Positions 17,967 through 43,773 of a DNA stretch of 49,486 nucleotides are shown piece after piece. The notes below the pieces were generated by a model. The model worked only from the letters and a program-made list of their open reading frames with translations. It was not told the DNA's origin and ran no database searches. How positions within the stretch are numbered: the stretch's first letter is position 1; each line of letters opens with the position of its first letter. The stretch comes from a virus, in the IMG/VR virus record IMGVR_UViG_3300045257_000116, positions 1 through 49,486 of that record. The stretch is one strand, 5' to 3'. Both the position numbers and the translations under genes were made by a program.

Positions 17967-18712
17967 AATGGCTGATCCGGTACGCTCGGGCCAAACGCTG
18001 AGTTCGTTGTGCCCGCGCCAGGCAGACTAGACGCGGCCGGCACAACAGAAGGCGTCGCCAGCGTGTTCTGAGCGCCCACCGCTGCGCCGGGACCGCTTGT
18101 GCTTCCATCCGTAGGCGTGCCGTTGCTGATCGCGCTCATGAGGCTGTTCTGTGCGTTCGCGGCCTGTGCAAGCGTGATCAACGGGCCGAAAAAATCCCAT
18201 TGATAGGAAACCATGTCCTGTTTGGTGTTGCCGCCTGAAATCTCGCCTAGCTTGAGCAGAAGCTGGTTCGTATAAATCTGCGCCAGGGTGACAACGGTGT
18301 ATGTCCCGCCGAGCTGCGTATGCTGAGACAGCACCTTTTGCAGCGCCGTCAGCACAGCCAACTTGCCGGGATAGCCGCTGATCGTCGTTGCCGGGCAGTC
18401 CATGCGGAGTGAGATGCGGAGCGGCTGCGTAATGACCGCGTTCGCCGCGACGTTCTGATTTGCGAACGGATAAAGCCCGTACTGATTATCGATCAGTGTC
18501 GAGCCGGGAATTGGACGGAAGTGAGCGAAATAGTTGTCCAGATTGAGCGCGCTCGTGCTGCCCGTCAGAATGCCCGCGAGAAAGTCGGCCGACTGCATGA
18601 TCGAGACGATCGGCAGCATCCCGCCAAGCATCTGCGCCGCAATACCACCCGTCAGGATGATTGGCGATATCTCGAAGCCAAGTTGAAAGACGGTGCGGCC
18701 GGCGCTTGTCAT
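17963..18712 (-). CDS. Tail protein following the tape measure (Mu gp43-like position)
   Basis: 249-aa ORF with an ATGA overlap with the tape measure stop. Confidence 0.5.
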   Translation of the reverse strand: MTSAGRTVFQLGFEISPIILTGGIAAQMLGGMLPIVSIMQSADFLAGILTGSTSALNLDNYFAHFRPIPGSTLIDNQYGLYPFANQNVAANAVITQPLRISLRMDCPATTISGYPGKLAVLTALQKVLSQHTQLGGTYTVVTLAQIYTNQLLLKLGEISGGNTKQDMVSYQWDFFGPLITLAQAANAQNSLMSAISNGTPTDGSTSGPGAAVGAQNTLATPSVVPAASSLPGAGTTNSAFGPSVPDQPF

Positions 18713-20304
18713 TGCGCCACCTGATTTGCACCGATCACGGCCGAGCCGCCGGTCTGGTTCTGGACGGTGAGTTCAACCTTGCCGAGATAGTTCTTCGTCT
18801 CGTTCGGCAAGTGACTGCGCCAGTCAGCGCCGTACTTATCGATATCGTTCTGCAGATTGCGTGGCCCCCAATTATAGGCGGCGACCGCCTTGGCTTGGTC
18901 GCCGCCGAATTCAGCGAGAAGATCGCGCAACAATGCCTTCGCCGCCGCACGGGATGCAACGGTGTCGGTCGGATCGGTCAGGCCATATTGCTTGGCCGTG
19001 TCTGGCATGAATTGGTAAACGCCTCGCGCGCCTTTGGGCGAAACCGCGTTCGGTCCCGATCCTTCACCGGCCTTGATCCCGTTGAGCAATGCATCGCTTG
19101 GATTATAATCACCCTTCGCGCCGCCTGGGAACGCCAGTGCATTGACGTTGCGGTCATACCAGTCGCCCTTCGAATAGTCGGGGTGGTTGTTGCTGCTGAT
19201 CGGGCCGCCAGTCGGCAGGGACGAGGCCGGTCCCCCACTGCCGGGAGAACTGAGCCCCATCTTGCCCAGCCACCCGGCCAGGGATTCCATGCCGTCCGAG
19301 ACTTCGCCGAGCCAATGTTTCAACTGATCGCTCTTGAGAAAGCTGTCGAGCAAATCGACCGCGGCCTTTGATAGCTTTTCGAGGCCCGGCTCGAGCGGAG
19401 CCAGGTCATTGACAAACACCGTCTCGATCTTCCCGCCCGCGCGATCAAGTTGGTTAACAAAATTCTGCATCTTGTCGGCGGTATCCTGCGATACGCCGAG
19501 ATACTGCGAATCTCTTTGGAAATCCCGCCCCGACTGTCCGAGTGCCTGACGCTGCCGGGCGAGCGACATAAAGTCCTGAAGGCTCCCATACTGATCGAGC
19601 CCGAGCGGCTGCATGATCTGCGCACCGCGTCCCTGCAATCCGCCCATGGCAATGAACCGGTCCACCATCGCCGGGAGCAACTTCGCCGCGATCTGCGCCG
19701 AGTCCATACCTGCGCGCGTGAGCGAGCCGACTTGCTGGCCGAAGACGCTGCCCTGCTTCGTGAGGTCGTTGCCTACGTCGTTGACGCCGGATAGGAAGTC
19801 TTCGGGGCTGGCGATGTATTTCTGATAGTCGATCTTGAACGCGCGCTGCTCACCGATCGTCGCGTTGATGACGAAGCCCTGCCGGCGGAACCCTGACGTG
19901 GTGAGCGCCAGTTTGTCCGCGCCGAACAACCCGCCCGCGCCGAGAAGGCCCGCGGCAATCGTGGTCAGGCCGGTCCATTTCAAAAGCTGTTCGGTCGCGC
20001 CCGTGATGTTGCTCAGAACATCCCTCGTGTCGCGCTTCATGTCTTTCCAGAAACCGGCCGACTTTTTGGCCGACTTCTCGATCTTCTCGTGATCGTCCTT
20101 GACCTTGTGCGTGAGTTCGGACTGAGCGAACAGCGCCGCCGCCAGTTCGACAAATGACACGCCGGTCTGCGCGATCTGCGCGTTCTGCTTGCCCCATTCG
20201 CCGGGCAGCTTCTTCAGCGATTCCAGATAGGTGTCATAGGACGAGCGGAATTTCTGCCAGTCAGCATCATCGATCGGGATTTTGACAATTGGAACCGTGA
20301 CCAT
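18709..20304 (-). CDS. Tape measure protein with C-terminal lytic transglycosylase (SLT) domain
   Basis: 531 aa with a helical N-terminal two thirds. The C-terminal GEGSGPNAVSPKGARGVYQFMPDTAKQYGL...AAYNWGP matches the E-S...GA-x-G-x-x-Q-x-x-P-x-TA SLT pattern. It lies after the chaperone pair. Confidence 0.7.
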   Translation of the reverse strand: MVTVPIVKIPIDDADWQKFRSSYDTYLESLKKLPGEWGKQNAQIAQTGVSFVELAAALFAQSELTHKVKDDHEKIEKSAKKSAGFWKDMKRDTRDVLSNITGATEQLLKWTGLTTIAAGLLGAGGLFGADKLALTTSGFRRQGFVINATIGEQRAFKIDYQKYIASPEDFLSGVNDVGNDLTKQGSVFGQQVGSLTRAGMDSAQIAAKLLPAMVDRFIAMGGLQGRGAQIMQPLGLDQYGSLQDFMSLARQRQALGQSGRDFQRDSQYLGVSQDTADKMQNFVNQLDRAGGKIETVFVNDLAPLEPGLEKLSKAAVDLLDSFLKSDQLKHWLGEVSDGMESLAGWLGKMGLSSPGSGGPASSLPTGGPISSNNHPDYSKGDWYDRNVNALAFPGGAKGDYNPSDALLNGIKAGEGSGPNAVSPKGARGVYQFMPDTAKQYGLTDPTDTVASRAAAKALLRDLLAEFGGDQAKAVAAYNWGPRNLQNDIDKYGADWRSHLPNETKNYLGKVELTVQNQTGGSAVIGANQVAQ

Positions 20305-28375: not shown

Positions 28376-30595
28376 TCAAAACCCCCGAGCGACTTGTGAA
28401 GGATGCTTCAGCACCGCAGCCTTGCTATGCGCGCGGAACTTGTTGAGAAAGCTCCCGATATGCCCGACAGGCGTGCGGATCGTGTGGCCGGCGGGCGTGC
28501 GCGTTTCGCGGTAACGAATGCCGGAAGTCTGCGCGGCCGGCGAGTTGGCGAACAGGATCGCGTCGGCATAGACGGTTTCGGCAACGGCCTTGAGGGTCTT
28601 CGCATCGAAGGCCGACAGGTCCGCATCCTTGAAGGTACGCGAATGCTCGATGATGCCCTTGAGGGTACGGCGACGATAGGCCATCGGGCTTTCACCAGCG
28701 GCGGGACGGGGCGCGGACTGACCGAGGGTCGAATAGACCGTATCGGCCTTGGTCTGCGCGTCGGCCATCTCGGCGGCGTCTTCGTCGGTCAGGTTGGCGG
28801 GAATTTTGCCTTCCATTTCGTCCAGGCGATCTTTCAGCGCCTGAGCATCGGCTTTGGCGGCGGCGTCCGCCTTTTCCTTTTCCTCTTTTTCCTCGGCGTC
28901 TTTCTTGTCCTTGGCTTCTTTCTCTTCGCGCGCCTTCTTGTCCTCTTCGGACTCGGCGGCATCGCGGCGATCTTTCAGCGATCCCTCGACCGCATCCAGG
29001 CGATCACAGATCGCGTCGAGCTTGTCGAATTTGTCGAGTGCGGCGTCGAGGCGATCAGCGCGGGCTTTCTCCGCGTCAGCTTTGGCCTTCAACTCTTCTT
29101 CGGTCATCGTCAAAGCCTCATTCTCAATGTTCGCCGAAACAATACCGACAGCCGGTCCGCCTTTATCCCAGACCCCGCGATCACATATCGCTACATGGTC
29201 TAGTAGTAGAGGCTTCCCTTCTATCAATAGCTTGGAACCATCGTCAAGGTGAATAAAATCAGTCGCGTTGGAAACAGTGACCAGCGGCGACGTGGAAAGC
29301 TGATCGGTGTGAAGCAGTTCGATGGTACTTTCGTCAAACAATTTGGCGATTGCCCAGACTTCCTCGCCCTTGATATAGGGCACAAAGACTGACCCAACAT
29401 TTTGCTCCGCGTATTCCTCGGATGTCAGCGCGCCCTTTGAATGCTCAAACAAAACGGGCAAGCCGCTGCACCGCGCGAGAAAATCGTCGGTCAGATAATG
29501 CGCCGGATCGCGCCAGCACCATTCATCGATCTTCCCGCCGCGATAGGCGGCGCGTGTGCCTGTGATGCGGATATCGAACAGCGCGACATTGCGATAAAAC
29601 TGCGGGCTGGTCAGATCGCCGGCCGCCATCAGCCGCGCGATGTCGAGTTCGTTCGCATCGAGCATTTTGAGCGCGACTGCGACGCCGGGATGCAGCGGCT
29701 CGGGTGGCTCAGATGCCAATGCCCATGCATGGCCGGTGTGTTCGCCCGAAACGACAGGCTCAAACTGCTCATCGATCGGTTGCAGATATGTCGTGAAATC
29801 GACACTGACATCGGGATCGGTCGAGCCGAGGAATGGGCCATTGCGCCGGCACAGAACCGAGCGCTCGCCATCGGGCAGAAAGCCGACTTCCTCAATCGTC
29901 TCGCGGGTCGCAGTTTCTTCGAGAGTTTCGCCGTTCTCGGCATGACCGCCAGGCAGGCACCAAAAGCCGGGGAAGTCGCCTCCATCGCCGCGCTTAAGGA
30001 AAAGCACATGCTCGGTTGGCGTCTTGAAAAGAATTCCAGCGGCGCGGGTCGGGTCCATCCTTTGACCATCTAGCACATAAGGCGCACCCGTTGGCAGCGA
30101 ATCCGCACGTTCACTGAATGTGTCGGCGCGAACTCTATCGATATCGACGCCTATTGCAGCGGCTTCTTTTATGAATTGTTCAATTTTTTCGTCTGCTAAT
30201 TCGTCTGGATCATTTGGAGAAAGCATGATCTGCTTTGTTCTCCACGGCGCAGATCCAGCAGAATGGTCGGAAACTCGAAATTCTGTCTGAATAAATCTAC
30301 GTTTCGGAGGCTCCCCCCGTTTTGTGCCCTTGGCCGCATCCCATTGTGTTTTGCGCGCGCTTAGAGATTGATCGCTTTCCGTGGCATATAGCTTGATGTA
30401 TGAACTCTCGCCCACTAATGTCTTCGAGTGATCAACCTGGATGGCAGCTGCGGGAATTTTGCTTCTGATTTTTGAAGCTAGAGACTTTGCTGTTTCAGGA
30501 ACTGACTTCGCCCCGCCGCCAGAGCCAAATTTTCCATCAGCATCACGGGGATGGTCGGATTCGCGAAACTCGTCGGTTGCGGTGAATTCAGGCAT
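28376..30595 (-). CDS. Nudix hydrolase - scaffold/prohead-protease-like fusion protein
   Basis: 739-aa single ORF. The Nudix box GGHAENGETLEETATRETIEEVGF is at aa 216-239 (nt 29879..29950). There is a globular block at aa 335-480 and a charged coiled-coil at aa 495-600 (EEELKAKADAEKARADRLD...EEKEEKEKADAAAKADAQALKDRLDEMEG). The N-terminus has a DHPRDADGKFG motif. Confidence 0.7.
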   Translation of the reverse strand: MPEFTATDEFRESDHPRDADGKFGSGGGAKSVPETAKSLASKIRSKIPAAAIQVDHSKTLVGESSYIKLYATESDQSLSARKTQWDAAKGTKRGEPPKRRFIQTEFRVSDHSAGSAPWRTKQIMLSPNDPDELADEKIEQFIKEAAAIGVDIDRVRADTFSERADSLPTGAPYVLDGQRMDPTRAAGILFKTPTEHVLFLKRGDGGDFPGFWCLPGGHAENGETLEETATRETIEEVGFLPDGERSVLCRRNGPFLGSTDPDVSVDFTTYLQPIDEQFEPVVSGEHTGHAWALASEPPEPLHPGVAVALKMLDANELDIARLMAAGDLTSPQFYRNVALFDIRITGTRAAYRGGKIDEWCWRDPAHYLTDDFLARCSGLPVLFEHSKGALTSEEYAEQNVGSVFVPYIKGEEVWAIAKLFDESTIELLHTDQLSTSPLVTVSNATDFIHLDDGSKLLIEGKPLLLDHVAICDRGVWDKGGPAVGIVSANIENEALTMTEEELKAKADAEKARADRLDAALDKFDKLDAICDRLDAVEGSLKDRRDAAESEEDKKAREEKEAKDKKDAEEKEEKEKADAAAKADAQALKDRLDEMEGKIPANLTDEDAAEMADAQTKADTVYSTLGQSAPRPAAGESPMAYRRRTLKGIIEHSRTFKDADLSAFDAKTLKAVAETVYADAILFANSPAAQTSGIRYRETRTPAGHTIRTPVGHIGSFLNKFRAHSKAAVLKHPSQVARGF

Positions 30596-30636
30596 CTGCC
30601 TGCTATATCACATCGCGCAGAACGGGGAAGGGCGGA

Positions 30637-30669
30637 AAGTGAAAAGGCCCGGCATACAACGCCGGGCCT
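30637..30669 (-). terminator. Intrinsic terminator after the dipeptide-repeat gene
   Basis: Minus-strand RNA GGCCCGGC-GUUGUAU-GCCGGGCC followed by UUUUCACUUU. Confidence 0.6.
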
Positions 30670-30695
30670 TTGTGTGGATGGGATGCGACCGATTA

Positions 30696-30980
30696 TTAGC
30701 CGTAGCCGGAGCCGTAGCCGTAGCCGGAGCCGGAGCCGTAGCCGGAGCCGGAGCCGTCGCCGTAGCCGGAGCCGTCGCCGTAGCCGTAGCCGTCGCCGTA
30801 GCCGGAGCCGGAGCCGTAGCCGGAGCCGGAGCCGTAGCCGTAGCCGGAGCCGTCGCCGTAGCCGGAGCCGGAGCCGGAGCCGTAGCCGTAGCCGGAGCCG
30901 TCGCCGTAGCCGGAGCCGTCGCCGTAGCCGGAGCCGTCGCCGTCCAGATCGCTCCGCTCACCTAAGAGCATCTTCGCCAT
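30696..30980 (-). CDS. (Tyr/Ser/Asp)-Gly dipeptide-repeat protein
   Basis: 94 aa: MAKMLLGERSDL followed by 41 X-Gly dipeptides (X = 16 Tyr, 17 Ser, 8 Asp). The ATG is 1 nt after the upstream stop (TAATATG), and the gene ends in a double stop TAATAA followed by a terminator. Confidence 0.6.
   Translation of the reverse strand: MAKMLLGERSDLDGDGSGYGDGSGYGDGSGYGYGSGSGSGYGDGSGYGYGSGSGYGSGSGYGDGYGYGDGSGYGDGSGSGYGSGSGYGYGSGYG
30699..30944. repeat. 246-nt hexanucleotide-periodic tandem repeat
   Basis: The plus strand is built only from gccgta, gccgga and gccgtc units. All six frames are open, which is why several ORF-track entries overlap here. Confidence 0.95.
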
Positions 30981-30981
30981 A

Positions 30982-31359
30982 TTACCGCCCCTGCACTTTC
31001 GCCGCGATCCATGCCGTTTCGGCCGTGGGATCGACGGAGAATATCGCGGTCACGCCTTCGAGTGTGAGTGTCGAGAGCGTGGCGGAAATCTTGCAATCCT
31101 TGGTCGGGCCTTTTTCGCCCAGACCGAAGACGCCGCCGACATCAGCGGACCAGTAAAGACACATGCGCGCCTCGGTCAGACTGATGGGCCGAGCCGCGAT
31201 ATCGGTCGTATAGCCGAAAACGACGCCACGCTTGTCGGTGCAGACGACGACGGGGATTTTACCATGCGTCGTTTGAGCGACTTCCGGCGTCGAAGCGGTC
31301 GGGCAGAAAAGCGCGGCCAACTTCTTGGCCTCGCCGATGGTGAGAGAATCGATATCCAT
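30982..31359 (-). CDS. Hypothetical protein (head module)
   Basis: 125-aa ORF. GGAGGAAG lies upstream of the ATG at 31359. Confidence 0.6.
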   Translation of the reverse strand: MDIDSLTIGEAKKLAALFCPTASTPEVAQTTHGKIPVVVCTDKRGVVFGYTTDIAARPISLTEARMCLYWSADVGGVFGLGEKGPTKDCKISATLSTLTLEGVTAIFSVDPTAETAWIAAKVQGR

Positions 31360-31420
31360 GAGGCTTCCTCCGTGGGTTGAGACTAGGAACGGGGATAGGA
31401 CTAGACCACAAAATATATTC

Positions 31421-31456
31421 CGTCAACGCATATTATTTTAACGGGGTGTGTTGACG
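31421..31456 (-). promoter_or_regulatory. Intergenic hairpin in an AT-rich spacer (weak terminator and/or internal promoter)
   Basis: CGTCAAC (31421..31427) pairs with GTTGACG (31450..31456). On the minus strand the hairpin is followed by AUAUAUUUUGUGG, and TTGACG could also serve as a -35. Confidence 0.3.
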
Positions 31457-31466
31457 CCACGGCATT

Positions 31467-32309
31467 TCATGTAGCCACCATCGCCGCCCGTGCCGCAATA
31501 AGAGATTGCCGCCCTTTTTCGGTCAGCATGTCGTTCGGCAACCGGCGAAGATTGTAAACCCATTCGTACGAGCAGCCGCAGTAGACCAGTTCGCCCGGCC
31601 GCTCGACATCATCGGTAAAGCCGTCCGGTCCCGGCTTTACGAGCCCTTTTGCGTGCGCCCAGCTATGGCGGACCAGAAGGATATGTCCATCGCGCGCCTC
31701 ATGCGGCTTGCGCGGATAGCGCTTGTAGTGGTGCCGCCATATCCCCGCGATGGCGTTCTGATCCATGGCGATGATGTGCGACAGATCGGCCGCGAACTTC
31801 TGTCCCTGGTCAATCGCGACGCGCCTCTCTTCGAACGGCAACGACACCAGCGCCTTGCGGATATCGCTCTTGACCGGGCTCTTCGCGATCACATCGGAAC
31901 CGCCAGGCGGAACAGACGTTGCCCAGCCGGCGAACCGCTGCAGCGTCTTTTCGATAGCGCTCGTACGGTTCAGTTTGATCAATCCCGCGCTCGCCATGAT
32001 ACGCCGGTCGAGTTCGGCGCGCAGTCTCGGGCGCAACTGGTCAATCGCGAATCGCGGAATGCCTTCGTGGTATTTGAGGATCGCGCCCTTGTCGATCATC
32101 CGGGCATAGATGCGACCGAACGTCGATTTGAGCGCGTCTTCGAGAACGTGCGGCGGGGTGAGCGAGCGCATTGCAGCCTCGCGGATCACGCGCATCCATT
32201 CTGCGATTTGGTCGGGGCTGGTGTAGCCACGCTGGCTAATATCCGCGACGGCTTCGGTGACGGTTTGGGCAAACGTCTTCACTCGGCGGCGATCTCTTCT
32301 GGATGCCAT
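31467..32309 (-). CDS. Head morphogenesis protein (MuF / SPP1 gp7-like)
   Basis: 280 aa, immediately after the portal gene, with a C-terminal YCGCSYEW (CxC) block as in F-like proteins. An alternative GTG start at 32282 gives a GTGA overlap with the portal stop. Confidence 0.5.
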   Translation of the reverse strand: MASRRDRRRVKTFAQTVTEAVADISQRGYTSPDQIAEWMRVIREAAMRSLTPPHVLEDALKSTFGRIYARMIDKGAILKYHEGIPRFAIDQLRPRLRAELDRRIMASAGLIKLNRTSAIEKTLQRFAGWATSVPPGGSDVIAKSPVKSDIRKALVSLPFEERRVAIDQGQKFAADLSHIIAMDQNAIAGIWRHHYKRYPRKPHEARDGHILLVRHSWAHAKGLVKPGPDGFTDDVERPGELVYCGCSYEWVYNLRRLPNDMLTEKGRQSLIAARAAMVAT

Positions 32310-33789: not shown

Positions 33790-35091
33790 TCAGTAACCCT
33801 CGCTGTTGCCGAGCGCGATGCTGAGCCCGTAGGTCATCGTATCGAGCAAATCGTCAGGCAATCCATCTTTCGCGCCGATCCTGAATTCGAATACCTGCGA
33901 CAGCCAATGATTGCGCGATTTGTCTTTGTAGGAAACCGTCTTCTCATAGGCATGGCGCGAGATTTTGCACAAGCCCTGATAGGCATAGCCCGAGACGGAT
34001 AGCGCGCGACCATCCTTGCCGGCAGCGACCAGATCGTTATCGATGGCAAAGCACGGCCAGTTCCGCCGCCGCGCCTGCTGGATCAGGATGGAGCCGGATT
34101 GCTTGTCCTCCACGAATGCGCCGATCGATCCATTCCGCGCCTGACACTGCTTCGCGTAGGCTTCTAGGTTCGTATAGACGCTCGGTAGCCAGCTCTCCAG
34201 AAGCGAACCCTCGATCTGGATGATGTCCCAATCGAGCAAAACCAACTTATGCCCAAAATGCTGATTGATCGCGTAGTAGCTGACTGCGGTCCCGTCATGC
34301 TCCTGGCCGTCCTTGACCGCCGTGTCGATCACTGCAAAGACGGCATCGCACTTCACGGGGTATTCGACCGGAGCGTCACTCACCAGAAATTTATCGATCT
34401 CGAACAGCGCCACGCCCGAGAAATCGACGAACGAGCCCTCATATTCCTGCTGATAGACCTTCGGGTGCAGATCCCGCTTTGCCGCCTCGATCTCGGCGGC
34501 CGGCAGGATATCCGCCGAGTGCCAAGTGAATGCGCCGAATTCCGCCAGCGATCCGCGCAGGGCAGTTTCGGCCAGTGCCTTTTCGTTCATCTCGTAATAA
34601 TGATTTCGGCCTTCGGGCACGCCGATCAGGTCGCACCAGCCGTTGCGGTCGGCAAGCGCCGGGCGAACGTTTTCGCCCCATGCGCCCTCTTTCATATTTC
34701 CGTATTCGTCGAGAATGCCGCCATCCCACGGCGATCCTTCGATACGTGCCGGCTTGTCCATGCCGAGAACAGTGATTTCGCTATCGTTGATCAGCTTCAA
34801 GGTGAGGTCGGATTCCGAGATATTCGCGATCAGATCGGCAGGCACCAGCTTTTTGAAGTCGCTCCAATAGATACGCTTGGCTTGGTCGCGGGTTGGTGCG
34901 CCGGCAAAGAAGCGTGCATTGTCGTAGTCGGTGCCATAGATCGCGCGCTTGACGATTTTGCGCTTAGCGAGTTCTGTCTTGCCCGAGCGTCGGCCGGCAC
35001 TGACGACATTAAACCGATGCGGGCTGTTCCAGTACAGATGCTGCATCGGGTGCGGCTTCAGCACCGTCCATCGGCGTGTCAGAAGTTCCAT
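33790..35091 (-). CDS. terL: Terminase large subunit
   Basis: 433 aa with Walker A VSAGRRSGKTE near the N-terminus and an acidic Walker B-like GILDEYG. It follows the small terminase. Confidence 0.8.
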   Translation of the reverse strand: MELLTRRWTVLKPHPMQHLYWNSPHRFNVVSAGRRSGKTELAKRKIVKRAIYGTDYDNARFFAGAPTRDQAKRIYWSDFKKLVPADLIANISESDLTLKLINDSEITVLGMDKPARIEGSPWDGGILDEYGNMKEGAWGENVRPALADRNGWCDLIGVPEGRNHYYEMNEKALAETALRGSLAEFGAFTWHSADILPAAEIEAAKRDLHPKVYQQEYEGSFVDFSGVALFEIDKFLVSDAPVEYPVKCDAVFAVIDTAVKDGQEHDGTAVSYYAINQHFGHKLVLLDWDIIQIEGSLLESWLPSVYTNLEAYAKQCQARNGSIGAFVEDKQSGSILIQQARRRNWPCFAIDNDLVAAGKDGRALSVSGYAYQGLCKISRHAYEKTVSYKDKSRNHWLSQVFEFRIGAKDGLPDDLLDTMTYGLSIALGNSEGY

Positions 35092-35551
35092 CAGTCACCT
35101 TGTCGATTTCTTGGACAAGGGCGCGCAGGCGTTGGGCGGTTGTCAAGAGCGTTTTGTCGGCGGGGTTTTTGTCGGCCTCTTCATGCGGGTTCGCCCCATA
35201 CCCAGGATCGATCTTACTCGCCCGCCAGCGGTAATGATGCGCCAGCGCCTCAGCTCGTGCGAGTTCGAACTTGCGTTCGGCTATGCCCATGTTTTTTGCG
35301 GTGCCAGCCTGTTTGAGTTCGAGTTCGGCGCGCTCGTCCCATGTTCGGGCGGCGAACCTACGGGCGGCGTCCGATTGTGCCGCCCGGTCTTTGTCCGCGG
35401 CAATCCATCGTGTGACCTGGGAACGATTGATATTCAGATCACAGGCGATCTGGCTCATGGTCACGCCGTCAATGATCAGATCGCAGAACGCCTCGATACC
35501 GAGTGCGTTGAGCTTGTCTCGCGCTTCTCCGGTGTCTGGCGGATGTCCCAT
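35009..35551 (-). CDS. terS: Terminase small subunit (HTH-containing)
   Basis: 180 aa. The HTH-like segment is VTMSQIACDLNINRSQVTRWI. It lies upstream of and overlaps terL. Confidence 0.6.
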   Translation of the reverse strand: MGHPPDTGEARDKLNALGIEAFCDLIIDGVTMSQIACDLNINRSQVTRWIAADKDRAAQSDAARRFAARTWDERAELELKQAGTAKNMGIAERKFELARAEALAHHYRWRASKIDPGYGANPHEEADKNPADKTLLTTAQRLRALVQEIDKVTDGTSDTPMDGAEAAPDAASVLEQPASV

Positions 35552-36587: not shown

Positions 36588-37274
36588 TCAAGCCGGAATA
36601 GGCGCGCTCGACAAAAGCTCGATCAGTTTGTCTGATGCCCTGACCCAATACGCCTGACGGGCGGCGTAGGCGGCGTAGGCGTCGGCGGCGTAGGCGGCGT
36701 AGGCGGCGTAGGCGTAGGCGGCGTAGGCGGCGTAGGCGGCGTAGGCGTCGGCGGCGTAGGCGGCGTAGGCGGCGTCGGCGTCTTGCCGTGCCTTTATCCA
36801 GCGATCGACAGTCGGGCTCGTACCGGTATCGATGAATTCACGATAAAGCGCCGCAACATCATCGAGAGCGGCGCGCTGTTTCGATCCATCATTCGTCCGC
36901 TGCGGTAACTCTTCGGATAGCAGCCACAGTGCAAATCGCGGCCATACCATAGCGAGATCAGCGCCCGGCTGGATGGCGGACGCGAACCGCTCGGGCCATG
37001 ACTGCGAAGCGCCATTATCCAGCGATTCGAACATCCGATCTTCAAGTTCTGCGAGAATTCGGGGAATGCCGAGATGTTTTTCGTATTCGCCGTGATCTTC
37101 GTGATCGATTTCTTCGCCGCCACGCAGGGCGACAGCCTCCAGTGTGCAGCCGACCGCACAGCCTTTGCCGTCTTCCCAATACTGGCCCTTGACGAGTTTA
37201 TCGGCCTGGCGGTGGATTTCGAGTTCGTTGAGAACGAAAATCTTGAGAGACGGATCGTTGTTGTAGGCGAGCAT
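36588..37274 (-). CDS. Hypothetical protein with C-terminal Ala/Tyr/Asp repeat
   Basis: ORF 36588..37334 trimmed to ATG 37274 (GAGGAG 8 nt upstream). 228 aa. A globular N-terminal part is followed by DADAAYAAYAADAYAAYAAYAAYAYAAYAAYAADAYAAYAA. Confidence 0.6.
   Translation of the reverse strand: MLAYNNDPSLKIFVLNELEIHRQADKLVKGQYWEDGKGCAVGCTLEAVALRGGEEIDHEDHGEYEKHLGIPRILAELEDRMFESLDNGASQSWPERFASAIQPGADLAMVWPRFALWLLSEELPQRTNDGSKQRAALDDVAALYREFIDTGTSPTVDRWIKARQDADAAYAAYAADAYAAYAAYAAYAYAAYAAYAADAYAAYAARQAYWVRASDKLIELLSSAPIPA
36661..36782. repeat. Triplet-periodic tandem repeat (ggc/gta/gtc units)
   Basis: The plus strand is composed only of ggc, gta and gtc triplets. It encodes the Ala/Tyr/Asp tract on the minus strand. 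Confidence 0.9.
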
Positions 37275-37330
37275 GTTCGGGACTCCTCGGGTTGGAACTT
37301 TTGGGAATATGCCGATATGGCGAAATTCTG

Positions 37331-37483
37331 TCAATGAATATCTTGCATCCTGTCGGGTTGCGGCGCTTGCGGAGTCCCGGCCTCAAGCGCCGCGTTCGGA
37401 CTATCGCTGAAACATGAGCTAGATCGCAAGGATGAAAACGCCACCGATGCGGCCAGGCCCATGAGTGCAGCACCGAGTTTCAT
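37331..37483 (-). CDS. Small secreted/membrane peptide (50 aa)
   Basis: ORF 37331..37630 trimmed to ATG 37483 (GGAG 9 nt upstream). MKLGAALMGLAASVAFSSL is signal-peptide-like. Confidence 0.4.
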   Translation of the reverse strand: MKLGAALMGLAASVAFSSLRSSSCFSDSPNAALEAGTPQAPQPDRMQDIH

Positions 37484-37676: not shown

Positions 37677-40025
37677 TCACAGAAGTTCGTTCTCGGGAAA
37701 GCGCTGATCGCGAAAACTGGATTGATCGGAAATCACTGAAATCAGGCGAAATTTCCGCGCTGAATTGCTTCTGATTGGAATGTATCCCTCTTTTGAAAGC
37801 ACCTGGGAAAACGATTTCGATGTCCCTGGATACTCGCCGTTGCGGTCGCACCACTTTGCCCATGAGCCGAATAGCCTTCCCACGGTGTCCTCGTAGTGCT
37901 GTCCCGTCTCGCAGCACTCGGCAACCCATTGATGAAATGTGTTCTGATCCTCGAAATATTCCTGGGTTGATTCCGTAACGATTGGGGGTGGCGCTAGACC
38001 GATCCTTTGCCAGAGCAGGCAACCCTCGATCATCCAGTTGAGGATACCGGGCCATTCTGCTTGCAGCTTTTCGTCAAGGTCTTTGTCGATCACGCTTGGT
38101 TTGTTCGTGAACGGGATCATGTGAAACCGGCGGCGAACGGCTTCATCGACCGTCTTAAGAGCTGGCTTGTTATTGCCGGCGATGAGGATTTTGAATGTCG
38201 GCAGAAACGTGAAGGGATCGCCCCGCATGACGCGGGCTGTGATCGGATCGCCACCGGTCAGCGACTTGATCTTGGCTGTTGCCCAATGCTTGCCTTCCTC
38301 GACCTCCTGCGCCGTGACCATGCGTGCGCCGTGGAGGAATGCTATCTCGGTCGCGTGCTGTTCGTGCTTGGACGCCGTGAATGTCGTCATGCTCGAAACC
38401 TTGGCATAGTCCTGCATGATCGCAGTTAAAGTATTCAGAAATGTACCCTTGCCGTTTCCGCCGTCGCCATGGAAGAAAAAGAGCGCGTGTTCCTTGACGC
38501 TGCCCGTCAGGCAATAACCCGAAACACGCTGCAAGTAATCGATCAATGCCCCATCCTGGCGCGTGGCATCTTCAAGAAACTGGTTCCAAACCGGACACTC
38601 GCCCGAAACGCCGGCCGCTGTGATCTTGGTGATCCTATCGCCAGGACGAGAATCGCGGAGTTCTCCGGTCTTAAGCTCGACTGTCCCATCTGGCGTTGCG
38701 AGCAACCACGGGTCGCCGTCCCAATCTGATGACACGGTTGCAATCCTCGGGTCAGCTCGTGCGAACCTTTCGGCACCTCCCGCGGTCGATGCCTTGGCCG
38801 TCCCGCGTTCTGCCTTAATGTTCGATGATCTGGCAATCTCGCGCGCATAGTGAAATGCGAGGCTCTTGCGCTCGGGACGCCATCTGTTGCCGTCCCATTC
38901 CAGCCAGGTGTTCTGATCGTGGCAATACCGCAGGATGTTCGAGAACTTGTCCGCGAACGCGAGCGCGATAGCATCCTCGTTCGCTGCGATCTGAACCGCG
39001 TCTGTCGCGATGAAGTTTGACCAGCTCGCGGCGCGTTCCTCGATCCATTGTGCGATGAAATCAGGCGTCCATCGCGCTTCCTCGACATCGGCGGCATCCC
39101 AGCCAGGTTGCGATGGATCTGCATTGACCTGGACAAGCCGGATCGAGCGCGCGATCCCCGTGATCTTATTCGCGATATCGATCATGCAACTCGTGCCGAT
39201 CTGCTCGGCCACCGGCATGATCTCGCCAGCCTTCGAGTGATCGGGCGGATATGCCAGCGCGTCGGCATCGGGCCACAGTACGACATCGCGGCCACCGAGC
39301 GGCGCAAAGTCCGTGAATTTTGCCGCCTTGCTTCCCCCTGCCCATGTCATGGCAACGTAGCCCGGCAGGAGGCGCTGCGCTGCGTCTGTCGCCTTCTCCC
39401 CTTCGCAGAGTACCACCGGCTTTCCAGCGCCATCAGCGAGCCTGTCCAGGCCGTATAACGGGCGCGGCGCGGAATAGTGGCCCATTCCCCATGACCACGT
39501 TCTGCCGCCATCAGTGCTGCCGACAGTCCATTGTGGCGTGATCTTCTTTTTCTTCGCGCCATCGATCACGTCATAGCGAGCGACATAGAAGATGAGTTCG
39601 CCGGCCGACGATCGATATGCCCAATATGACGATGGCTCGCCCCACGCATAGACATCCATATTCGGGAGGCCATCCGCCTTCTCGGCTGGACGGGTGAGGC
39701 GTTGCGCCTTTTTGAGCAGCGCCTTCTTTGGAAATGCCGCGATGGTTTCTGTCTTGTCCGTCATAATGGCGACGGCATCGCGGAAATCTACGGAATGGTA
39801 TTTCTGGATGAAGTCGATCGCGTCACCGCCGACGCCGCAACCATGACAATGGAACCGCTCTTTATCCTCGCCGGCGTAGACCGTGAAGCTCGGGGTGCGC
39901 TCGGCGTGGAAGGGACACAGACCTTTATATTCTCGTCCGTCTTTCTTCAGGGCAACGTAGCGGGATATCAGTTCCGGCAGGCTGACCGATGCCAGGAGTT
40001 CCGATAGATCGGTGCGCGCGCTCAT
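37677..40025 (-). CDS. Bifunctional DNA primase / P4-D5-type helicase
   Basis: 782 aa. It has the CHC2 zinc finger CPFHAERTPSF...HCHGCG at the N-terminus and the Walker A GDGGNGKGT in the C-terminal half (P4-family primase C-terminal / SF3 helicase pattern). Confidence 0.85.
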   Translation of the reverse strand: MSARTDLSELLASVSLPELISRYVALKKDGREYKGLCPFHAERTPSFTVYAGEDKERFHCHGCGVGGDAIDFIQKYHSVDFRDAVAIMTDKTETIAAFPKKALLKKAQRLTRPAEKADGLPNMDVYAWGEPSSYWAYRSSAGELIFYVARYDVIDGAKKKKITPQWTVGSTDGGRTWSWGMGHYSAPRPLYGLDRLADGAGKPVVLCEGEKATDAAQRLLPGYVAMTWAGGSKAAKFTDFAPLGGRDVVLWPDADALAYPPDHSKAGEIMPVAEQIGTSCMIDIANKITGIARSIRLVQVNADPSQPGWDAADVEEARWTPDFIAQWIEERAASWSNFIATDAVQIAANEDAIALAFADKFSNILRYCHDQNTWLEWDGNRWRPERKSLAFHYAREIARSSNIKAERGTAKASTAGGAERFARADPRIATVSSDWDGDPWLLATPDGTVELKTGELRDSRPGDRITKITAAGVSGECPVWNQFLEDATRQDGALIDYLQRVSGYCLTGSVKEHALFFFHGDGGNGKGTFLNTLTAIMQDYAKVSSMTTFTASKHEQHATEIAFLHGARMVTAQEVEEGKHWATAKIKSLTGGDPITARVMRGDPFTFLPTFKILIAGNNKPALKTVDEAVRRRFHMIPFTNKPSVIDKDLDEKLQAEWPGILNWMIEGCLLWQRIGLAPPPIVTESTQEYFEDQNTFHQWVAECCETGQHYEDTVGRLFGSWAKWCDRNGEYPGTSKSFSQVLSKEGYIPIRSNSARKFRLISVISDQSSFRDQRFPENELL

Positions 40026-42762: not shown

Positions 42763-43773
42763 TCATTCCGCCGCCTCTATGGCTAAGGTTTCATCGAGCG
42801 GGCGGTTTTCTCCGAAATCCATAGCCGCTTGCTCGACCTCGCGACGGCCTTCATAGGCCACTTGGATATTCTTCACCGCCTGCCGGTAATAGGACGGCTT
42901 CAATTCAATGCCGACGCCCTTCCGGCCGCCCGTGAGTGCGCCATATACCTCGCTGCCGACGCCCATGAACGGGGTGAGAAGCGTCTCGCCTGGGTTGCTC
43001 CAAAGCGTGACAACGCGATCAATCACGTCAAGCTGTAAAGCATGGACGTGTTTTTCGTCTTCTTCGTCCTTGGCCTCGCGGAAGGGCAGGACGCGACCGA
43101 TCCTAACGTCATCCCAGAAAGCCGACGCATAGTTGCGCCAAATCCAGTGAGAGTATCGGTTCTCGATCTGGTTTCCGGTCCAGCCGCGATATTTTAGCAA
43201 TTCGGTCGGCATCTTGCGTTCGCCGGCATATTCCATGAGGCCGGTCGGATGCGTGATGGGGATCTGATTCTGTCCGCTACGGCGAAACACCAGAAGATAG
43301 TCGGCCGACGCCACGCTGCAGCGAGAGCTGTCCTCGACCAACGAACGGTGCGCGAGGTTTTTTGCCATCGTGCGATTTCGGACGGCAAGGGGTTCCTTCC
43401 ATATCGCGTATCGCGCGATGAAATTCCATCCGGACTTCTCATGCAGTCGGATGATGTCGCCGGGAAAATCGATCAGATGGTCCGTTCCTGAATTCCCGCT
43501 CGGCACGTCCATGCAATGAACCGCGGTCATCCGGCCTGGCAGGGTCAGCCGATGGAGTTCGCGAACCACATAACCATAATGCTCAAAGAACTGGTCATAG
43601 TCGCGGCAGTTCGATAGATCGCGTTCGCTGGACGAGTAGCAGAACAGGCCCCCGAACGGAGGGGAATACAGAGAAAGATGGATACTTTCATCGCGGAAAG
43701 CCTTCATCGTTTCGATGCAGTCGCCGTTATAGATGGCATACCGGTCTGTTACCTTTTGATCTATTGCAACCAT
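42763..43773 (-). CDS. DNA N6-adenine / N4-cytosine methyltransferase (beta class)
   Basis: 336 aa. Motif IV, LYSPPFGG, is near the N-terminus and motif I, TPFMGVGSE, near the C-terminus (the order of beta-class amino-methyltransferases). No cognate restriction gene was found. Confidence 0.8.
   Translation of the reverse strand: MVAIDQKVTDRYAIYNGDCIETMKAFRDESIHLSLYSPPFGGLFCYSSSERDLSNCRDYDQFFEHYGYVVRELHRLTLPGRMTAVHCMDVPSGNSGTDHLIDFPGDIIRLHEKSGWNFIARYAIWKEPLAVRNRTMAKNLAHRSLVEDSSRCSVASADYLLVFRRSGQNQIPITHPTGLMEYAGERKMPTELLKYRGWTGNQIENRYSHWIWRNYASAFWDDVRIGRVLPFREAKDEEDEKHVHALQLDVIDRVVTLWSNPGETLLTPFMGVGSEVYGALTGGRKGVGIELKPSYYRQAVKNIQVAYEGRREVEQAAMDFGENRPLDETLAIEAAE

What the first reader, a model, noticed from the sequence alone, without database searches (positions are those of the whole stretch)
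30696..30980. Phage protein made of 41 consecutive X-Gly dipeptides (X = Tyr/Ser/Asp), one codon per residue
After 12 ordinary residues (MAKMLLGERSDL), the 94-aa ORF is purely (D/S/Y)-G repeated 41 times (16 Tyr, 17 Ser, 8 Asp).

At DNA level the 246-nt tract uses only three hexamers (TACGGC, TCCGGC, GACGGC on the coding strand). This implies recent slippage or expansion, or strong constraint.

The reading frame is supported by:
- a start 1 nt after the upstream stop;
- a double stop codon;
- an intrinsic terminator right after the gene.

The composition is that of [G/S]Y[G/S] low-complexity domains (FUS-like), which drive phase separation or reversible fibrils in eukaryotes. Here it sits in the head-morphogenesis module, directly upstream of the scaffold-like gene. 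Possible roles are a condensate-forming assembly factor, an internal capsid or ejection protein, a Tyr cross-linkable cement, or a length-variable contingency locus.
Basis: partly seen in the sequence, partly recalled or inferred. Interest (0 to 1): 0.75.

Follow-up and report, generated by a model that had tools for sequence, protein, structure and literature searches.

The report
Phage Tyr-Gly repeat protein with barrel partner
The odd 94-codon gene is real: it encodes a disordered protein of 41 (Tyr/Ser/Asp)-Gly dipeptides and always travels with a small barrel-protein gene as an uncharacterised two-gene phage module, which usually sits among DNA replication and recombination genes and landed in this phage's head-gene block by insertion.

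Summary
The frame is real. In 31 of 33 assessable related loci, and in 5 of 6 distant ones, a small ORF abuts the same upstream gene (DUF6948) and encodes X-Gly repeats. It does so even where the codons differ (TAC/GGC, TAT/GGC, TAC/GGG, TAC/GGT).

- **Junction:** the two genes are translationally coupled, typically as stop, 1 nt, ATG.
- **Partner:** DUF6948 is a conserved small beta-barrel with a weak Sm-like fold match. It spans 912 clusters at 50% identity and has no match in cultured phages or in the papers searched.
- **Tract:** predicted disordered, always acidic, and fast-changing. Partner genes 97.5–99.7% identical carry tracts of 71 vs 83 and 77 vs 131 residues.

The head-assembly reading is not supported. 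Eighteen phages with the same head module lack the pair, and that slot holds unrelated small ORFs in several of them. Elsewhere the pair sits beside SSB, Erf, RecT, Sak4, NinB, resolvases and replication initiators, or just before terminase genes.

Best reading: a moron-like insertion of an early-region accessory cassette. Its Tyr-rich tail protein probably works with the barrel protein during replication or recombination. The function itself is inferred, not shown.

The parts
30696..30980 (-). Gene for the X-Gly repeat protein (94 aa). It comprises a 12-residue head peptide MAKMLLGERSDL (30945-30980), a (Tyr/Ser/Asp-Gly)41 tract (30699-30944) and the stop TAA (30696-30698). A second TAA follows at 30693-30695.
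   Evidence: The same frame is conserved next to DUF6948 in 31 of 33 assessable loci and in 5 of 6 distant ones. It holds across four codon dialects. AlphaFold2 gives pLDDT 38.
30982..31359 (-). Partner gene: a DUF6948 protein of 125 aa, a small beta-barrel with N- and C-terminal helices and an Sm-like fold. Its last codons (Q-G-R) carry the ribosome-binding site for the repeat gene.
   Evidence: Pfam PF22253, E 2.7e-21. 456 close homologues and 912 clusters at 50% identity. AlphaFold2 pLDDT 86, pTM 0.70. Foldseek top PDB hits are all Sm/LSm proteins, E from 2e-3. BFVD returns DUF6948 and Sm-like phage proteins.
30985..30993 (-). Translational-coupling junction: the Shine-Dalgarno-like CAGGGGCGG lies inside the end of DUF6948, followed by TAA, 1 nt and the ATG of the repeat gene.
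   Evidence: The junction CA(G/A)GGnCGn-stop-N-ATG is conserved in 22 of 26 loci. The others have TAATG-type overlaps or a 2-nt gap.
31360..31466 (-). A 107-nt, relatively A+T-rich spacer (48.6% G+C) upstream of DUF6948, with promoter-like hexamers (TTAAAA-18-TATATT at 31441..31412; also a TTGACG) and a GGAGGA ribosome-binding site.
   Evidence: This is pattern-level evidence only. Several other loci also have TTGAC-type motifs upstream.
30636..30671 (-). Intrinsic-terminator-like hairpin (13 bp, G+C-rich) plus U-rich tail, closing the two-gene unit.
   Evidence: -23.9 kcal/mol, z = -2.96. Similar hairpins follow the repeat gene in L004/L014 and in L005/L006 (sequences).
31467..32309 (-). Left flank of the insertion: head-morphogenesis gene (phrog_324). 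It is not part of the cassette.
   Evidence: In relatives it is followed either directly by the NUDIX gene or by unrelated small ORFs.
28376..30595 (-). Right flank of the insertion: NUDIX + DUF2213 protein (prohead protease/scaffold-like, phrog_6216). It is not part of the cassette.

Best explanation
SHOWN:
- The ORF is a real gene. It is the downstream half of a mobile, translationally coupled two-gene phage cassette.
- Gene 1 encodes DUF6948, a strongly conserved small beta-barrel with an Sm-like fold.
- Gene 2 encodes a short conserved head peptide (M-A-x-M/L-I/L-F/Y/L-G...), then (Tyr/Ser/Asp-Gly)n, and in many relatives a short acidic tip (..GEDVS).
- In this phage the cassette sits as a promoter-to-terminator unit (moron-like) in a variable slot between the head-morphogenesis gene and the NUDIX/prohead-protease gene. 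Its place in the head module is therefore an accident of insertion.
- In other phages the same cassette lies in the replication/recombination (early) region or at that region's border with the terminase genes.
- The tract has no confidently predicted fold (read here as disordered), is acidic and lacks Lys/Arg. It turns over quickly by in-frame gain, loss and reshuffling of 6-nt and 18-nt units, which homogenises codons within each locus. Selection keeps Gly at every second position and mostly Tyr, Ser or Asp at the others.

INFERRED mechanism:
- The tail protein is made together with the barrel protein and docks on a barrel oligomer through its head peptide.
- This gives a multivalent brush of Tyr 'stickers' on Gly/Ser/Asp 'spacers'.
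- The brush self-associates or recruits partner proteins or nucleic acid during phage DNA replication and recombination.
- It would act much as the Gly-rich disordered tail does for SSB, RG tails do for Sm proteins, or the [G/S]Y[G/S] domain does for FUS.

Confidence in the genetic architecture is about 0.9. Confidence in the inferred mechanism is about 0.3.
For: **Frame and gene**
- An X-Gly ORF abuts DUF6948 in 31 of 33 assessable loci at 39-72% partner identity, and in 5 of 6 distant members.
- Only this frame keeps its amino-acid content across the four codon dialects GGC/TAC, GGC/TAT, GGG/TAC and GGT/TAC.
- No stop codon interrupts any tract, and the flanks printed for nine loci show no repeat units past the stop codon.

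**Coupling**
- The stop-N-ATG junction, with a Shine-Dalgarno inside the invariant Q-G-R codons, occurs in 22 of 26 loci. Frame offsets vary in the rest, which argues against a frameshift fusion.
- One database protein, P0145 (from a 1.2-kb contig, locus not examined), carries a DUF6948 domain and the tract in one chain.

**Insertion**
- Eighteen head-module relatives lack DUF6948 and lack any X-Gly tract in any frame.
- The same slot holds unrelated small ORFs in L049, L051, L052-55 and L061.
- A hairpin terminator follows the cassette, and an A+T-rich spacer with promoter-like sites precedes it.

**Usual context elsewhere**
- Neighbours include SSB, Erf, RecT with a RuvC-like resolvase, exonuclease with NinB, Sak4, RusA, replication initiators, primase/helicase, the pol III beta clamp and AAA_24; or TerS/TerL directly downstream.

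**Fast turnover**
- Partner genes are 97.5% and 99.7% identical at the nucleotide level, while the tracts are 71 vs 83 aa and 77 vs 131 aa with different residue order.
- Contigs identical in the flanks that were compared carry 9 X-Gly units (L063), more than 140 before the contig ends (L064), or more than 190 interrupted by a scaffold gap (L062).

**Selection**
- Ser and Asp need transversions from TAY, yet they dominate. The transition neighbours His and Cys are rare.
- All 27 tracts are net acidic (-2 to -16).

**Disorder and partner fold**
- Tail protein: pLDDT 38.
- Barrel protein: pLDDT 86, with an N-terminal helix followed by 5 strands. The top PDB neighbours are all Sm/LSm.
- Phage early proteins with an LSm-like fold have a precedent (PMC12152347).
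Against: - There is no experimental evidence of any kind.
- The Sm-like match is weak (Foldseek E about 2e-3, TM 0.4-0.65). Pfam finds no LSM motif, and a profile search against PDB sequences finds nothing.
- By my count from its sequence the barrel protein is roughly neutral, not basic as typical nucleic-acid binders are.
- Physical binding between the two proteins is inferred only from gene linkage, translational coupling and a single fused protein.
- The window's copy lacks the acidic tip seen in many relatives.
- Even spacing of Tyr, expected for a tuned sticker-spacer polymer, is significant in the window (p = 0.013) and in three relatives. It is not family-wide, and tandem duplication confounds the test.
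- Early regions also collect anti-defence genes; Lar lies near the cassette in L066. The genomic context therefore fits a host-takeover role equally well.
- Length differences come from short-read metagenome assemblies, which handle such repeats badly.
Confidence: 0.45

Rival explanations
1. Anti-defence or host-takeover accessory. The acidic, Tyr-rich disordered protein, with or without the barrel protein, acts as a decoy, sponge or inhibitor of a host factor such as a nuclease, protease, kinase or nucleic-acid-binding immune sensor. Rapid tract change would then reflect an arms race.
For: - The cassette is mobile, sits at variable positions, and is moron-like in the window.
- Early regions that hold it also hold counter-defence genes, for example Lar restriction alleviation and methyltransferases near L062 and L066.
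- The tract is hypervariable.
- Its net charge is always negative.
Against: - Neither protein matches any PADLOC model, and no known anti-defence family appears in Pfam or PHROGs.
- Characterised DNA mimics and signal sponges are folded proteins, not dipeptide repeats (my own knowledge).
- The partner gene is highly conserved (63% mean column identity). That is not what an arms-race target interface usually looks like.
Confidence: 0.2
2. One reading: a head-morphogenesis factor, such as a condensate-forming assembly factor, an internal or ejection protein, or a Tyr-cross-linked cement. The basis is that it lies between the head-morphogenesis gene and the protease/scaffold gene.
For: Its position in this window. 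The composition would suit a flexible internal protein.
Against: - All 18 phages with a homologous head module lack the cassette.
- None of the 41 other DUF6948 loci that were tblastn-screened against this window's head genes (those held) places the cassette between a head-morphogenesis and a NUDIX/protease gene. L073, fetched later, has a Phage_Mu_F gene on the opposite strand about 1.7 kb downstream.
- The informative neighbours elsewhere are replication and recombination genes.
- The cassette is separated from the protease gene by a terminator.
Confidence: 0.07
3. A translated but functionless microsatellite. A hexamer repeat keeps expanding downstream of DUF6948 and happens to be open in the frame that follows the stop codon.
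For: - Codons are extremely homogeneous within each locus, and length turns over quickly.
- The residues at X are all single-nucleotide neighbours of the Tyr codon.
Against: - The tract persists next to partners only 35-45% identical to each other.
- The same Tyr/Ser/Asp-Gly content recurs in four independent codon dialects.
- The head peptide, and often the tip, are conserved.
- No premature stop occurs among several hundred Tyr codons that are one step from TAA/TAG, and the flanks printed for nine loci show no repeats past the stop.
- The transversion products Ser and Asp are favoured over the transition products His and Cys.
Confidence: 0.05
4. A DNA- or RNA-level element, such as iterons, a recombination hot spot, a packaging or origin site, or a structured RNA, rather than a protein.
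For: The DNA is highly repetitive and G+C-rich (73% G+C), and in other phages it lies near replication genes.
Against: - The nucleotide sequence of the repeat unit is not conserved between loci, whereas the encoded dipeptides are.
- There is no Rfam match anywhere in the window.
- The tract RNA folds less well than dinucleotide shuffles (z = +5.0).
- The ATG, Shine-Dalgarno and stop codon are conserved.
Confidence: 0.02
5. A precursor of a modified or secreted Gly-rich peptide (microcin-like or RiPP-like). The head would be the leader, and DUF6948 would be a recognition or processing partner.
For: A conserved N-terminal peptide is followed by a variable Gly-rich core, and it is always paired with one conserved small protein.
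Against: - No modification, export or immunity genes co-occur consistently.
- There is no signal peptide.
- Cores of more than 100 residues are unlike known peptides of that kind (my own knowledge).
- The tract is acidic rather than Cys/Ser-rich.
Confidence: 0.03

Closest known systems
FUS-type [G/S]Y[G/S] low-complexity (prion-like) domains of eukaryotic RNA-binding proteins
   Same: - Dense GYG/SYG motifs: 16 in 94 residues.
- Gly/Ser spacers and predicted disorder.
- Association with a small nucleic-acid-type fold, here encoded as a separate polypeptide.
   Different: - Strict dipeptide periodicity with Gly at every second residue.
- No Gln or Asn; about 10% Asp and no basic residues.
- Encoded by a near-perfect hexamer repeat that changes length between near-identical genomes.
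- Phage origin, with no sequence homology.
- Phase behaviour is untested.
Sm/LSm/Hfq proteins with disordered tails (RG tails of SmB/D1/D3 and LSm4; the acidic C-terminal domain of Hfq); phage LSm-like early proteins (T4 GoF, MotB.1, Frd.2; PMC12152347)
   Same: - The partner protein's predicted topology is an N-terminal helix followed by a 5-stranded bent sheet.
- All top structural neighbours are Sm/LSm proteins.
- A low-complexity Gly-containing dipeptide tail goes with the barrel.
- Phage early-region location.
   Different: - The tail is a separate, translationally coupled protein, not a C-terminal extension.
- It is Tyr/Ser/Asp-Gly, not Arg-Gly.
- No Sm1/Sm2 sequence motifs are detected.
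- The structural match is weak.
- Ring formation and RNA binding are untested.
Bacterial and phage SSB: OB-fold + Gly-rich disordered linker + acidic tip
   Same: - Small barrel, then a Gly-rich disordered stretch, then (in many relatives) a short acidic C-terminal tip.
- Located in recombination/replication modules; in L013 it lies directly upstream of an SSB gene.
   Different: - The fold search points to Sm-like rather than OB.
- The parts are split over two genes.
- The tract is Tyr-rich and strictly periodic.
- The window's copy has no tip.
- There is no sequence similarity.
Morons of tailed phages (independent promoter-gene-terminator units inserted between late genes)
   Same: The cassette is inserted between two genes that are adjacent in relatives. 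It is preceded by a spacer with promoter-like sites and followed by a hairpin terminator.
   Different: - Promoter activity is unproven.
- Base composition is not distinctly foreign (60% vs 57.6% G+C).
- In most other phages the same cassette is an ordinary member of an early operon.
Gly/Tyr-rich structural proteins: sulfur globule proteins (Pfam SGP), high-Gly/Tyr keratin-associated proteins, the (Gly-X)n crystalline repeats of silk fibroin
   Same: - Similar composition. Relatives give sub-threshold composition-driven Pfam hits to SGP and the keratin head (E about 0.05-0.09).
- Alternating Gly, as in silk.
   Different: - No signal peptide.
- Scores fall below the family thresholds.
- Asp-rich and Ala-free.
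- Cytoplasmic phage protein of 44-131 residues or more.
- No evidence of a structural role.
Simple-sequence contingency loci and variable-number tandem repeats in coding regions
   Same: A short tandem DNA repeat inside a gene, with length differing between near-identical genomes.
   Different: The unit is 6 nt, so changes alter protein length and residue order but never switch the gene off. Amino-acid content is conserved across codon dialects.

Membership tests
FUS-like [G/S]Y[G/S] low-complexity domain | High density of [G/S]Y[G/S] triplets in a sequence predicted to be disordered | tested here: met
   16 motifs in 94 residues. AlphaFold2 mean pLDDT is 38 with no secondary structure.
FUS-like [G/S]Y[G/S] low-complexity domain | Polar uncharged spacers (Gly, Ser, Gln, Asn) with very few charged residues | tested here: not met
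   No Gln or Asn. There are 8 Asp in the tract and a net charge of -8. All 27 family members are net acidic.
FUS-like [G/S]Y[G/S] low-complexity domain | Tyr-dependent phase separation or reversible fibril/hydrogel formation | not testable with these tools
   This needs recombinant protein.
Sm/LSm/Hfq (for the partner, DUF6948) | N-terminal helix followed by a strongly bent five-stranded antiparallel sheet | tested here: met
   AlphaFold2 model with pLDDT 86: H8-18, E35-41, E46-51, E59-67, E91-100, E103-108. All 50 top PDB neighbours are Sm/LSm or LSm-domain (Edc3) entries.
Sm/LSm/Hfq (for the partner, DUF6948) | Sm1/Sm2 sequence motifs, or significant sequence or profile similarity | tested here: not met
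   Pfam hits only DUF6948. A profile search against PDB sequences gives no match at E <= 10. Foldseek E is only about 2e-3, with TM 0.4-0.65.
Sm/LSm/Hfq (for the partner, DUF6948) | Hexameric or heptameric ring that binds RNA | not testable with these tools
   No multimer prediction or binding assay is available.
Moron | Lies between two genes that are adjacent in related phages | tested here: met
   The head-morphogenesis gene is followed directly by the NUDIX gene in L001, L002, L046-48, L056, L057 and L060. None of the 18 relatives has the cassette.
Moron | Own promoter upstream and own terminator downstream | tested here: inconclusive
   The terminator hairpin is clear. The promoter is supported only by consensus-like hexamers in a 107-nt A+T-rich spacer.
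Moron | Base composition different from the surrounding genes | tested here: not met
   DUF6948 is 60.1% G+C against 56.8-60.9% in the flanking genes. The 73% of the repeat gene simply reflects the repeat itself.
Simple-sequence contingency locus | Repeat-number change between close relatives | tested here: met
   L028/L029 and L065/L066: partner genes are 97.5% and 99.7% identical, while tracts are 71 vs 83 and 77 vs 131 aa. L062-L064 also differ. Caveat: these are short-read assemblies.
Simple-sequence contingency locus | Repeat-number change switches expression on and off by shifting the frame or altering promoter spacing | tested here: not met
   The unit is 6 nt (higher order 18 nt), so every change stays in frame.
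SSB-type architecture | OB-fold DNA-binding core | tested here: not met
   Every PDB neighbour in the 50 rows listed is an Sm/LSm-type entry, none an SSB.
SSB-type architecture | Conserved acidic C-terminal tip after the Gly-rich linker | tested here: not met
   The window's protein ends ...GYG directly. Many relatives do end in GEDVS, GEDVST, GEDS or GEDIAA.
Sulfur globule protein (Pfam SGP, PF17228) | Score above the family threshold, and a secretion signal | tested here: not met
   The window protein gives no SGP hit. Relatives score 15 bits against a cut-off of 26.7. The N-terminus MAKMLLGERSDL is not a signal peptide.

The most novel reading that the evidence does not exclude
Phages of Gram-negative bacteria carry a portable two-gene 'condensate kit'. 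An Sm-like ring displays several copies of a FUS-like Tyr/Gly sticker-spacer protein and nucleates a membrane-less compartment around replicating and recombining phage nucleic acid. Hexamer slippage tunes tract length, and hence phase behaviour, between hosts or conditions.
Probability: 0.15. Interest if true: 0.9.

Novelty: categorically new. Interest (0 to 1): 0.7.

Why it matters
Neither protein has a characterised relative.
- DUF6948 spans 912 clusters at 50% identity.
- Two members gave no tblastn match among 50,697 GenBank phage records.
- Neither DUF6948 nor DUF7666 appears in the 8 million papers searched.

The pair is therefore a widespread piece of phage 'dark matter' with an unusually clean sequence grammar. 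If the tail protein works through multivalent Tyr contacts, it would be a minimal, naturally length-variable model for sticker-spacer polymers in bacteria. It would also be a new type of accessory factor in phage replication and recombination modules.

There is a practical point too. Gene callers and short-read assemblers miss or break this gene. The source annotation did not call the ORF here, and contigs end or carry scaffold gaps inside the tract elsewhere. Its frequency is therefore probably underestimated.

I chose 'categorically new' because no known system is close, not because a new mechanism has been demonstrated.

Tried and rejected
- **Close relatives of this phage.** Only 65-75% DNA matches to the terminase and portal genes of Shewanella and Yersinia phages were found. 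The junction sequence is absent from the metagenome and IMG/VR collections, so tract-length variation could not be checked at this exact locus.
- **DUF6948 in cultured phages.** tblastn with the window protein and with a distant member found nothing.
- **Genome scan wasted.** Host range is therefore poorly sampled.
- **Family libraries.** Pfam, PHROGs and PADLOC on the repeat protein gave only composition-driven sub-threshold hits (TrAA12-like, SGP, keratin head, CFAP143).
- **PDB sequence search.** A profile of DUF6948 against PDB sequences gave no hit.
- **Structure of the repeat protein alone.** Uninformative, pLDDT 38. A model of the two proteins together could not be run with the tools at hand.
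- **Frameshift or read-through fusion of the two ORFs.** Considered because the AGGGG-CGG-TAA junction resembles a frameshift site. Rejected because the frame offset between the two genes varies (1-nt gap, TAATG overlap, 2-nt gap, 13-28-nt overlaps) while the ATG is conserved.
- **Even spacing of Tyr as a family-wide signature.** Mixed result, not adopted.
- **RNA element.** No Rfam hit, and the tract RNA is less structured than shuffles.
- **The ~55-residue 'GAC' head of distant repeat proteins.** It aligned poorly, and Pfam finds nothing significant in proteins that carry this head. Not pursued.
- **Literature.** Searches for Gly/Tyr dipeptide-repeat phage proteins found nothing relevant.
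Full report
**1.

On the minus strand, 30980..30696 is an ATG-started ORF of 94 codons. It reads MAKMLLGERSDL followed by 41 uninterrupted X-Gly dipeptides (17 Ser, 16 Tyr, 8 Asp). The tract is written with only three hexamers: TCCGGC, TACGGC and GACGGC. Tandem Repeats Finder reports the array at period 6 (score 326) and period 18 (score 359).

- The upstream ORF stops at TAA one nucleotide before the ATG.
- The ORF ends in TAA TAA.
- A 13-bp G+C-rich hairpin with a U-rich tail follows (-23.9 kcal/mol, z = -2.96).
- Five of the six frames are open across the tract. Openness alone therefore cannot choose the frame.

**2. The frame is real and the gene is conserved**

The upstream ORF (30982-31359) is a DUF6948 protein (Pfam PF22253, E 2.7e-21). 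I fetched 34 viral contigs and one genome contig that encode DUF6948 relatives at 39-72% identity.

- In 31 of 33 assessable loci, a small ORF abuts the DUF6948 stop and encodes a short head followed by X-Gly repeats.
- L039 carries a GDVTGLY heptad repeat instead, and L038 is unclear.
- Six much more distant DUF6948 members came from a profile search of 1.84 billion representatives (912 clusters at E <= 0.001). Five of them have the same arrangement.

The tracts use different 'codon dialects':

| Dialect | Loci |
|---|---|
| GGC/TAC/TCC/GAC | the window |
| GGC/TAT/TCT/GAT | L016, L024, L027, L028 |
| GGG/TAC/TCC/GAC | L062-L066 |
| GGT/TAC | L040 |

Only the X-Gly frame yields the same amino acids in all four dialects. 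The other frames read ATAP, LAMA, PGTG or VPVT. The head follows M-A-x-M/L-I/L-F/Y/L-G, and many proteins end in GEDVS-like tips. No tract contains a stop, although every Tyr codon is one step away from one.

I conclude that this is a protein-coding gene under selection at the amino-acid level. The source annotation seems to have missed it. The exact protein is not in the 15-billion-protein collection, while both neighbouring proteins are.

**3. The two genes are translationally coupled**

In 22 of 26 loci the junction reads CA(G/A)GGnCGn-stop-N-ATG. The Shine-Dalgarno element thus lies inside the invariant Q-G-R codons that end DUF6948. The remaining loci have TAATG-type overlaps, a 2-nt gap or, in distant members, overlaps of 4-28 nt. 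The variable frame offset together with the conserved ATG argues against a programmed frameshift fusion. One database protein, P0145, carries a DUF6948 domain and the tract in a single chain.

**4. The position in the head module is an accident of insertion**

The local gene order on the minus strand is:

1. large terminase
2. portal
3. head-morphogenesis protein
4. DUF6948
5. repeat gene
6. NUDIX + DUF2213 (prohead protease/scaffold-like)
7. phrog_6268
8. major-capsid-like protein

.

Eighteen phages share this head module (37-51% identity in the head-morphogenesis protein; L001, L002, L046-L061). None has DUF6948 or any X-Gly tract in any frame. The slot between the head-morphogenesis gene and the NUDIX gene is either empty or filled with unrelated small ORFs.

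In the window the cassette is preceded by a 107-nt A+T-rich spacer with promoter-like hexamers and followed by the hairpin. This is a moron-like layout, though promoter activity is unproven.

**5. Where the cassette normally lives**

Neighbours of the cassette in other phages are overwhelmingly replication and recombination genes:

| Locus | Neighbouring genes |
|---|---|
| L013 | primase/helicase upstream; SSB 1 nt downstream |
| L014 | replication-initiator-like upstream; Erf-like annealing protein downstream |
| L016 | RusA |
| L034 | RuvC-like resolvase upstream; RecT downstream |
| L035 | exonuclease upstream; NinB downstream |
| L028 | Sak4-like annealing protein upstream |
| L036, L041 | replication initiators |
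| L065, L066 | NinB |
| L067 | pol III beta clamp |
| L069 | AAA_24 |
| L015, L023 | directly before TerS or TerL, at the border of the early region |

.

This association is the only functional lead. It points away from capsid assembly.

**6. How the tract evolves**

Within each locus there is essentially one codon per residue. Between loci the codons differ. Partner genes that are 97.5% (L028/L029) and 99.7% (L065/L066) identical at the nucleotide level carry tracts of 71 vs 83 and 77 vs 131 residues. Residue order differs, while heads and tails are the same.

Three contigs identical in the flanks that were compared carry:

- 9 X-Gly units (L063);
- more than 140 units before the contig ends (L064);
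- more than 190 units interrupted by a scaffold gap (L062)

. Some of that difference may be assembly collapse.

The residues found at X (Ser and Asp much more often than Phe, His, Asn, Cys or Val) are all single-nucleotide neighbours of TAY. Ser and Asp require transversions, yet the transition neighbours His and Cys are rare. This argues for selection of small polar and acidic spacers. All 27 proteins examined are net acidic, and essentially no Lys or Arg occurs at the X positions of their tracts. Because the unit is 6 nt, changes alter length and never the frame. It is a length-variable protein, not an on/off switch.

**7. Physical nature**

- AlphaFold2 gives the repeat protein a pLDDT of 38 with no secondary structure. 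This fits disorder, although a single-sequence prediction is weak evidence.
- The protein holds 16 [G/S]Y[G/S] motifs in 94 residues.
- Tyr is more evenly spaced than in shuffles in the window (p = 0.013) and in three relatives. This does not hold across the family, and tandem duplication confounds the test.
- The tract RNA is less structured than shuffles (z = +5.0), and the window has no Rfam match. These results, together with the non-conserved nucleotide sequence, reject a DNA- or RNA-level element.

**8. The partner**

DUF6948 is strongly conserved, with 63% mean column identity over 36 sequences. It has an invariant block around CTDKRGVVFGY and YWSADVGGVFGLGEKGP. The AlphaFold2 model (pLDDT 86, pTM 0.70) shows an N-terminal helix, five strands and a C-terminal helix.

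Every top PDB neighbour is an Sm/LSm protein, but the matches are weak (E from 2e-3, TM 0.4-0.65). In the viral structure library, the matches after the DUF6948 entries include proteins labelled Sm-like or RNA-binding. Neither Pfam nor a profile search of PDB sequences sees an Sm motif. By my count from its sequence the protein is roughly neutral. Phage early proteins with an LSm-like fold have been described for T4 (GoF, MotB.1, Frd.2; PMC12152347).

**9. The tract is a module used elsewhere**

Database proteins combine the same tract with other small heads:

- DUF7666;
- a head of about 55 residues with a G-A-C motif;
- a TIGR02996 'repeat-companion' domain

. This suggests the tract supplies a generic property, such as multivalency, flexibility or self-association, to different adaptor domains.

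**10. Best explanation and rivals**

*Shown:* a real gene, an obligate coupled partner, a mobile cassette, a moron-like insertion in this phage, a usual home among replication and recombination genes, and fast in-frame turnover under amino-acid-level selection.

*Inferred:* the tail protein docks by its head peptide on a DUF6948 oligomer. It would act as a multivalent Tyr-sticker/Gly-Ser-Asp-spacer brush during replication or recombination. This is analogous to the Gly-rich tail of SSB, the RG tails of Sm proteins, or the FUS low-complexity domain.

| Explanation | Confidence |
|---|---|
| Genetic architecture as described | about 0.9 |
| Inferred mechanism | about 0.3 |
| Rival: anti-defence or host-takeover decoy | 0.2 |
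| Rival: head assembly or virion protein | 0.07 |
| Rival: functionless translated microsatellite | 0.05 |
| Rival: RiPP-like or microcin-like precursor | 0.03 |
| Rival: DNA or RNA element | 0.02 |

**11. Novelty**

- No paper in the searched library mentions DUF6948 or DUF7666.
- The DUF6948 members queried give no tblastn match among 50,697 GenBank phage records.
- Neither protein matches PADLOC, and neither the window's DUF6948 nor its repeat protein matches any PHROG family.

The pair therefore has no characterised relative, and only analogies are available. I rate it categorically new in the sense of distance from known systems. No new mechanism has been demonstrated.

Noticed in passing
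window 36588-37334 (-), repeat at 36660-36782: The same phage has a second Tyr-containing low-complexity tract. A 248-codon ORF ends in about 13 tripeptide units (AAY/AAD...DAAYAAYAADAYAAYAAYAAYAYAAYAAYAADAYAAYAA...), encoded by a 9-nt repeat (also scored at periods 24 and 33). The region before it contains GKGCAVGCTLEA, which loosely recalls the 'G-A-C' heads of X-Gly proteins in other phages. It gave no Pfam, PHROG or PADLOC hit.
   Followed up: partly
L062, L063, L064 (contigs carrying identical DUF6948 protein P0107): Contigs from different samples are identical in the flanks that were compared. One assembles only 9 X-Gly units (L063), one has more than 190 units with a run of N (L062), and one ends inside the tract after more than 140 units (L064). 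Either the length truly varies a great deal, or short-read assemblers collapse and break at this gene.
   Followed up: partly
L039:5356-5697: One DUF6948 gene is followed by an ORF made of a 7-residue repeat (GDVTGLY / GNVTYLS...) rather than by an X-Gly tract. The partner slot can evidently hold a different kind of repeat protein.
   Followed up: no
proteins P0163, P0172, P0196, P0206, P0203; L043, L044, L045, L068, L069: The same (Tyr/Ser/Asp/Asn-Gly)n tract is fused to other small domains in metagenomic proteins. These include DUF7666 at either end, a head of about 55 residues with a G-A-C motif, and a TIGR02996 'repeat-companion' domain.
   Followed up: partly
window 28376-30595 (-): The 739-aa protein fuses a NUDIX hydrolase domain to a DUF2213/prohead-protease-like region and a Glu/Lys-rich coiled tail. 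The tail contains a 33-nt tandem repeat at 28871-28948. Cultured relatives match only from about residue 185, and in two metagenomic relatives (L049, L061) the gene starts directly at the NUDIX domain. The first ~180 residues therefore look like an extra N-terminal extension here.
   Followed up: no
L049, L051, L052-L055, L061 (between the head-morphogenesis and NUDIX genes): The slot that holds the cassette in the window holds other, unrelated small ORFs in relatives, about 0.2-1.2 kb in total. It looks like a recurrent insertion site within this head module.
   Followed up: partly
window 30696-30980: The exact 94-aa protein is not in the 15-billion-protein collection, although the DUF6948 and NUDIX proteins of the same JGI contig are. 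The source's gene caller probably skipped the ORF or chose another frame.
   Followed up: no
whole window: The window equals a whole 49,486-bp JGI metagenome contig and looks like a near-complete tailed-phage genome with a baseplate. Identified genes:
- RecE-like exonuclease (89-784)
- baseplate wedge (12835-14250)
- lytic tail protein (18709-20304)
- small terminase (35009-35551)
- primase (37677-40025)
- methyltransferase (42763-43773)
- helicase (43761-45161)
- HNH endonuclease (48900-49466)

There is no tRNA and no Rfam match. No integrase appeared among the ORFs scanned.
   Followed up: partly
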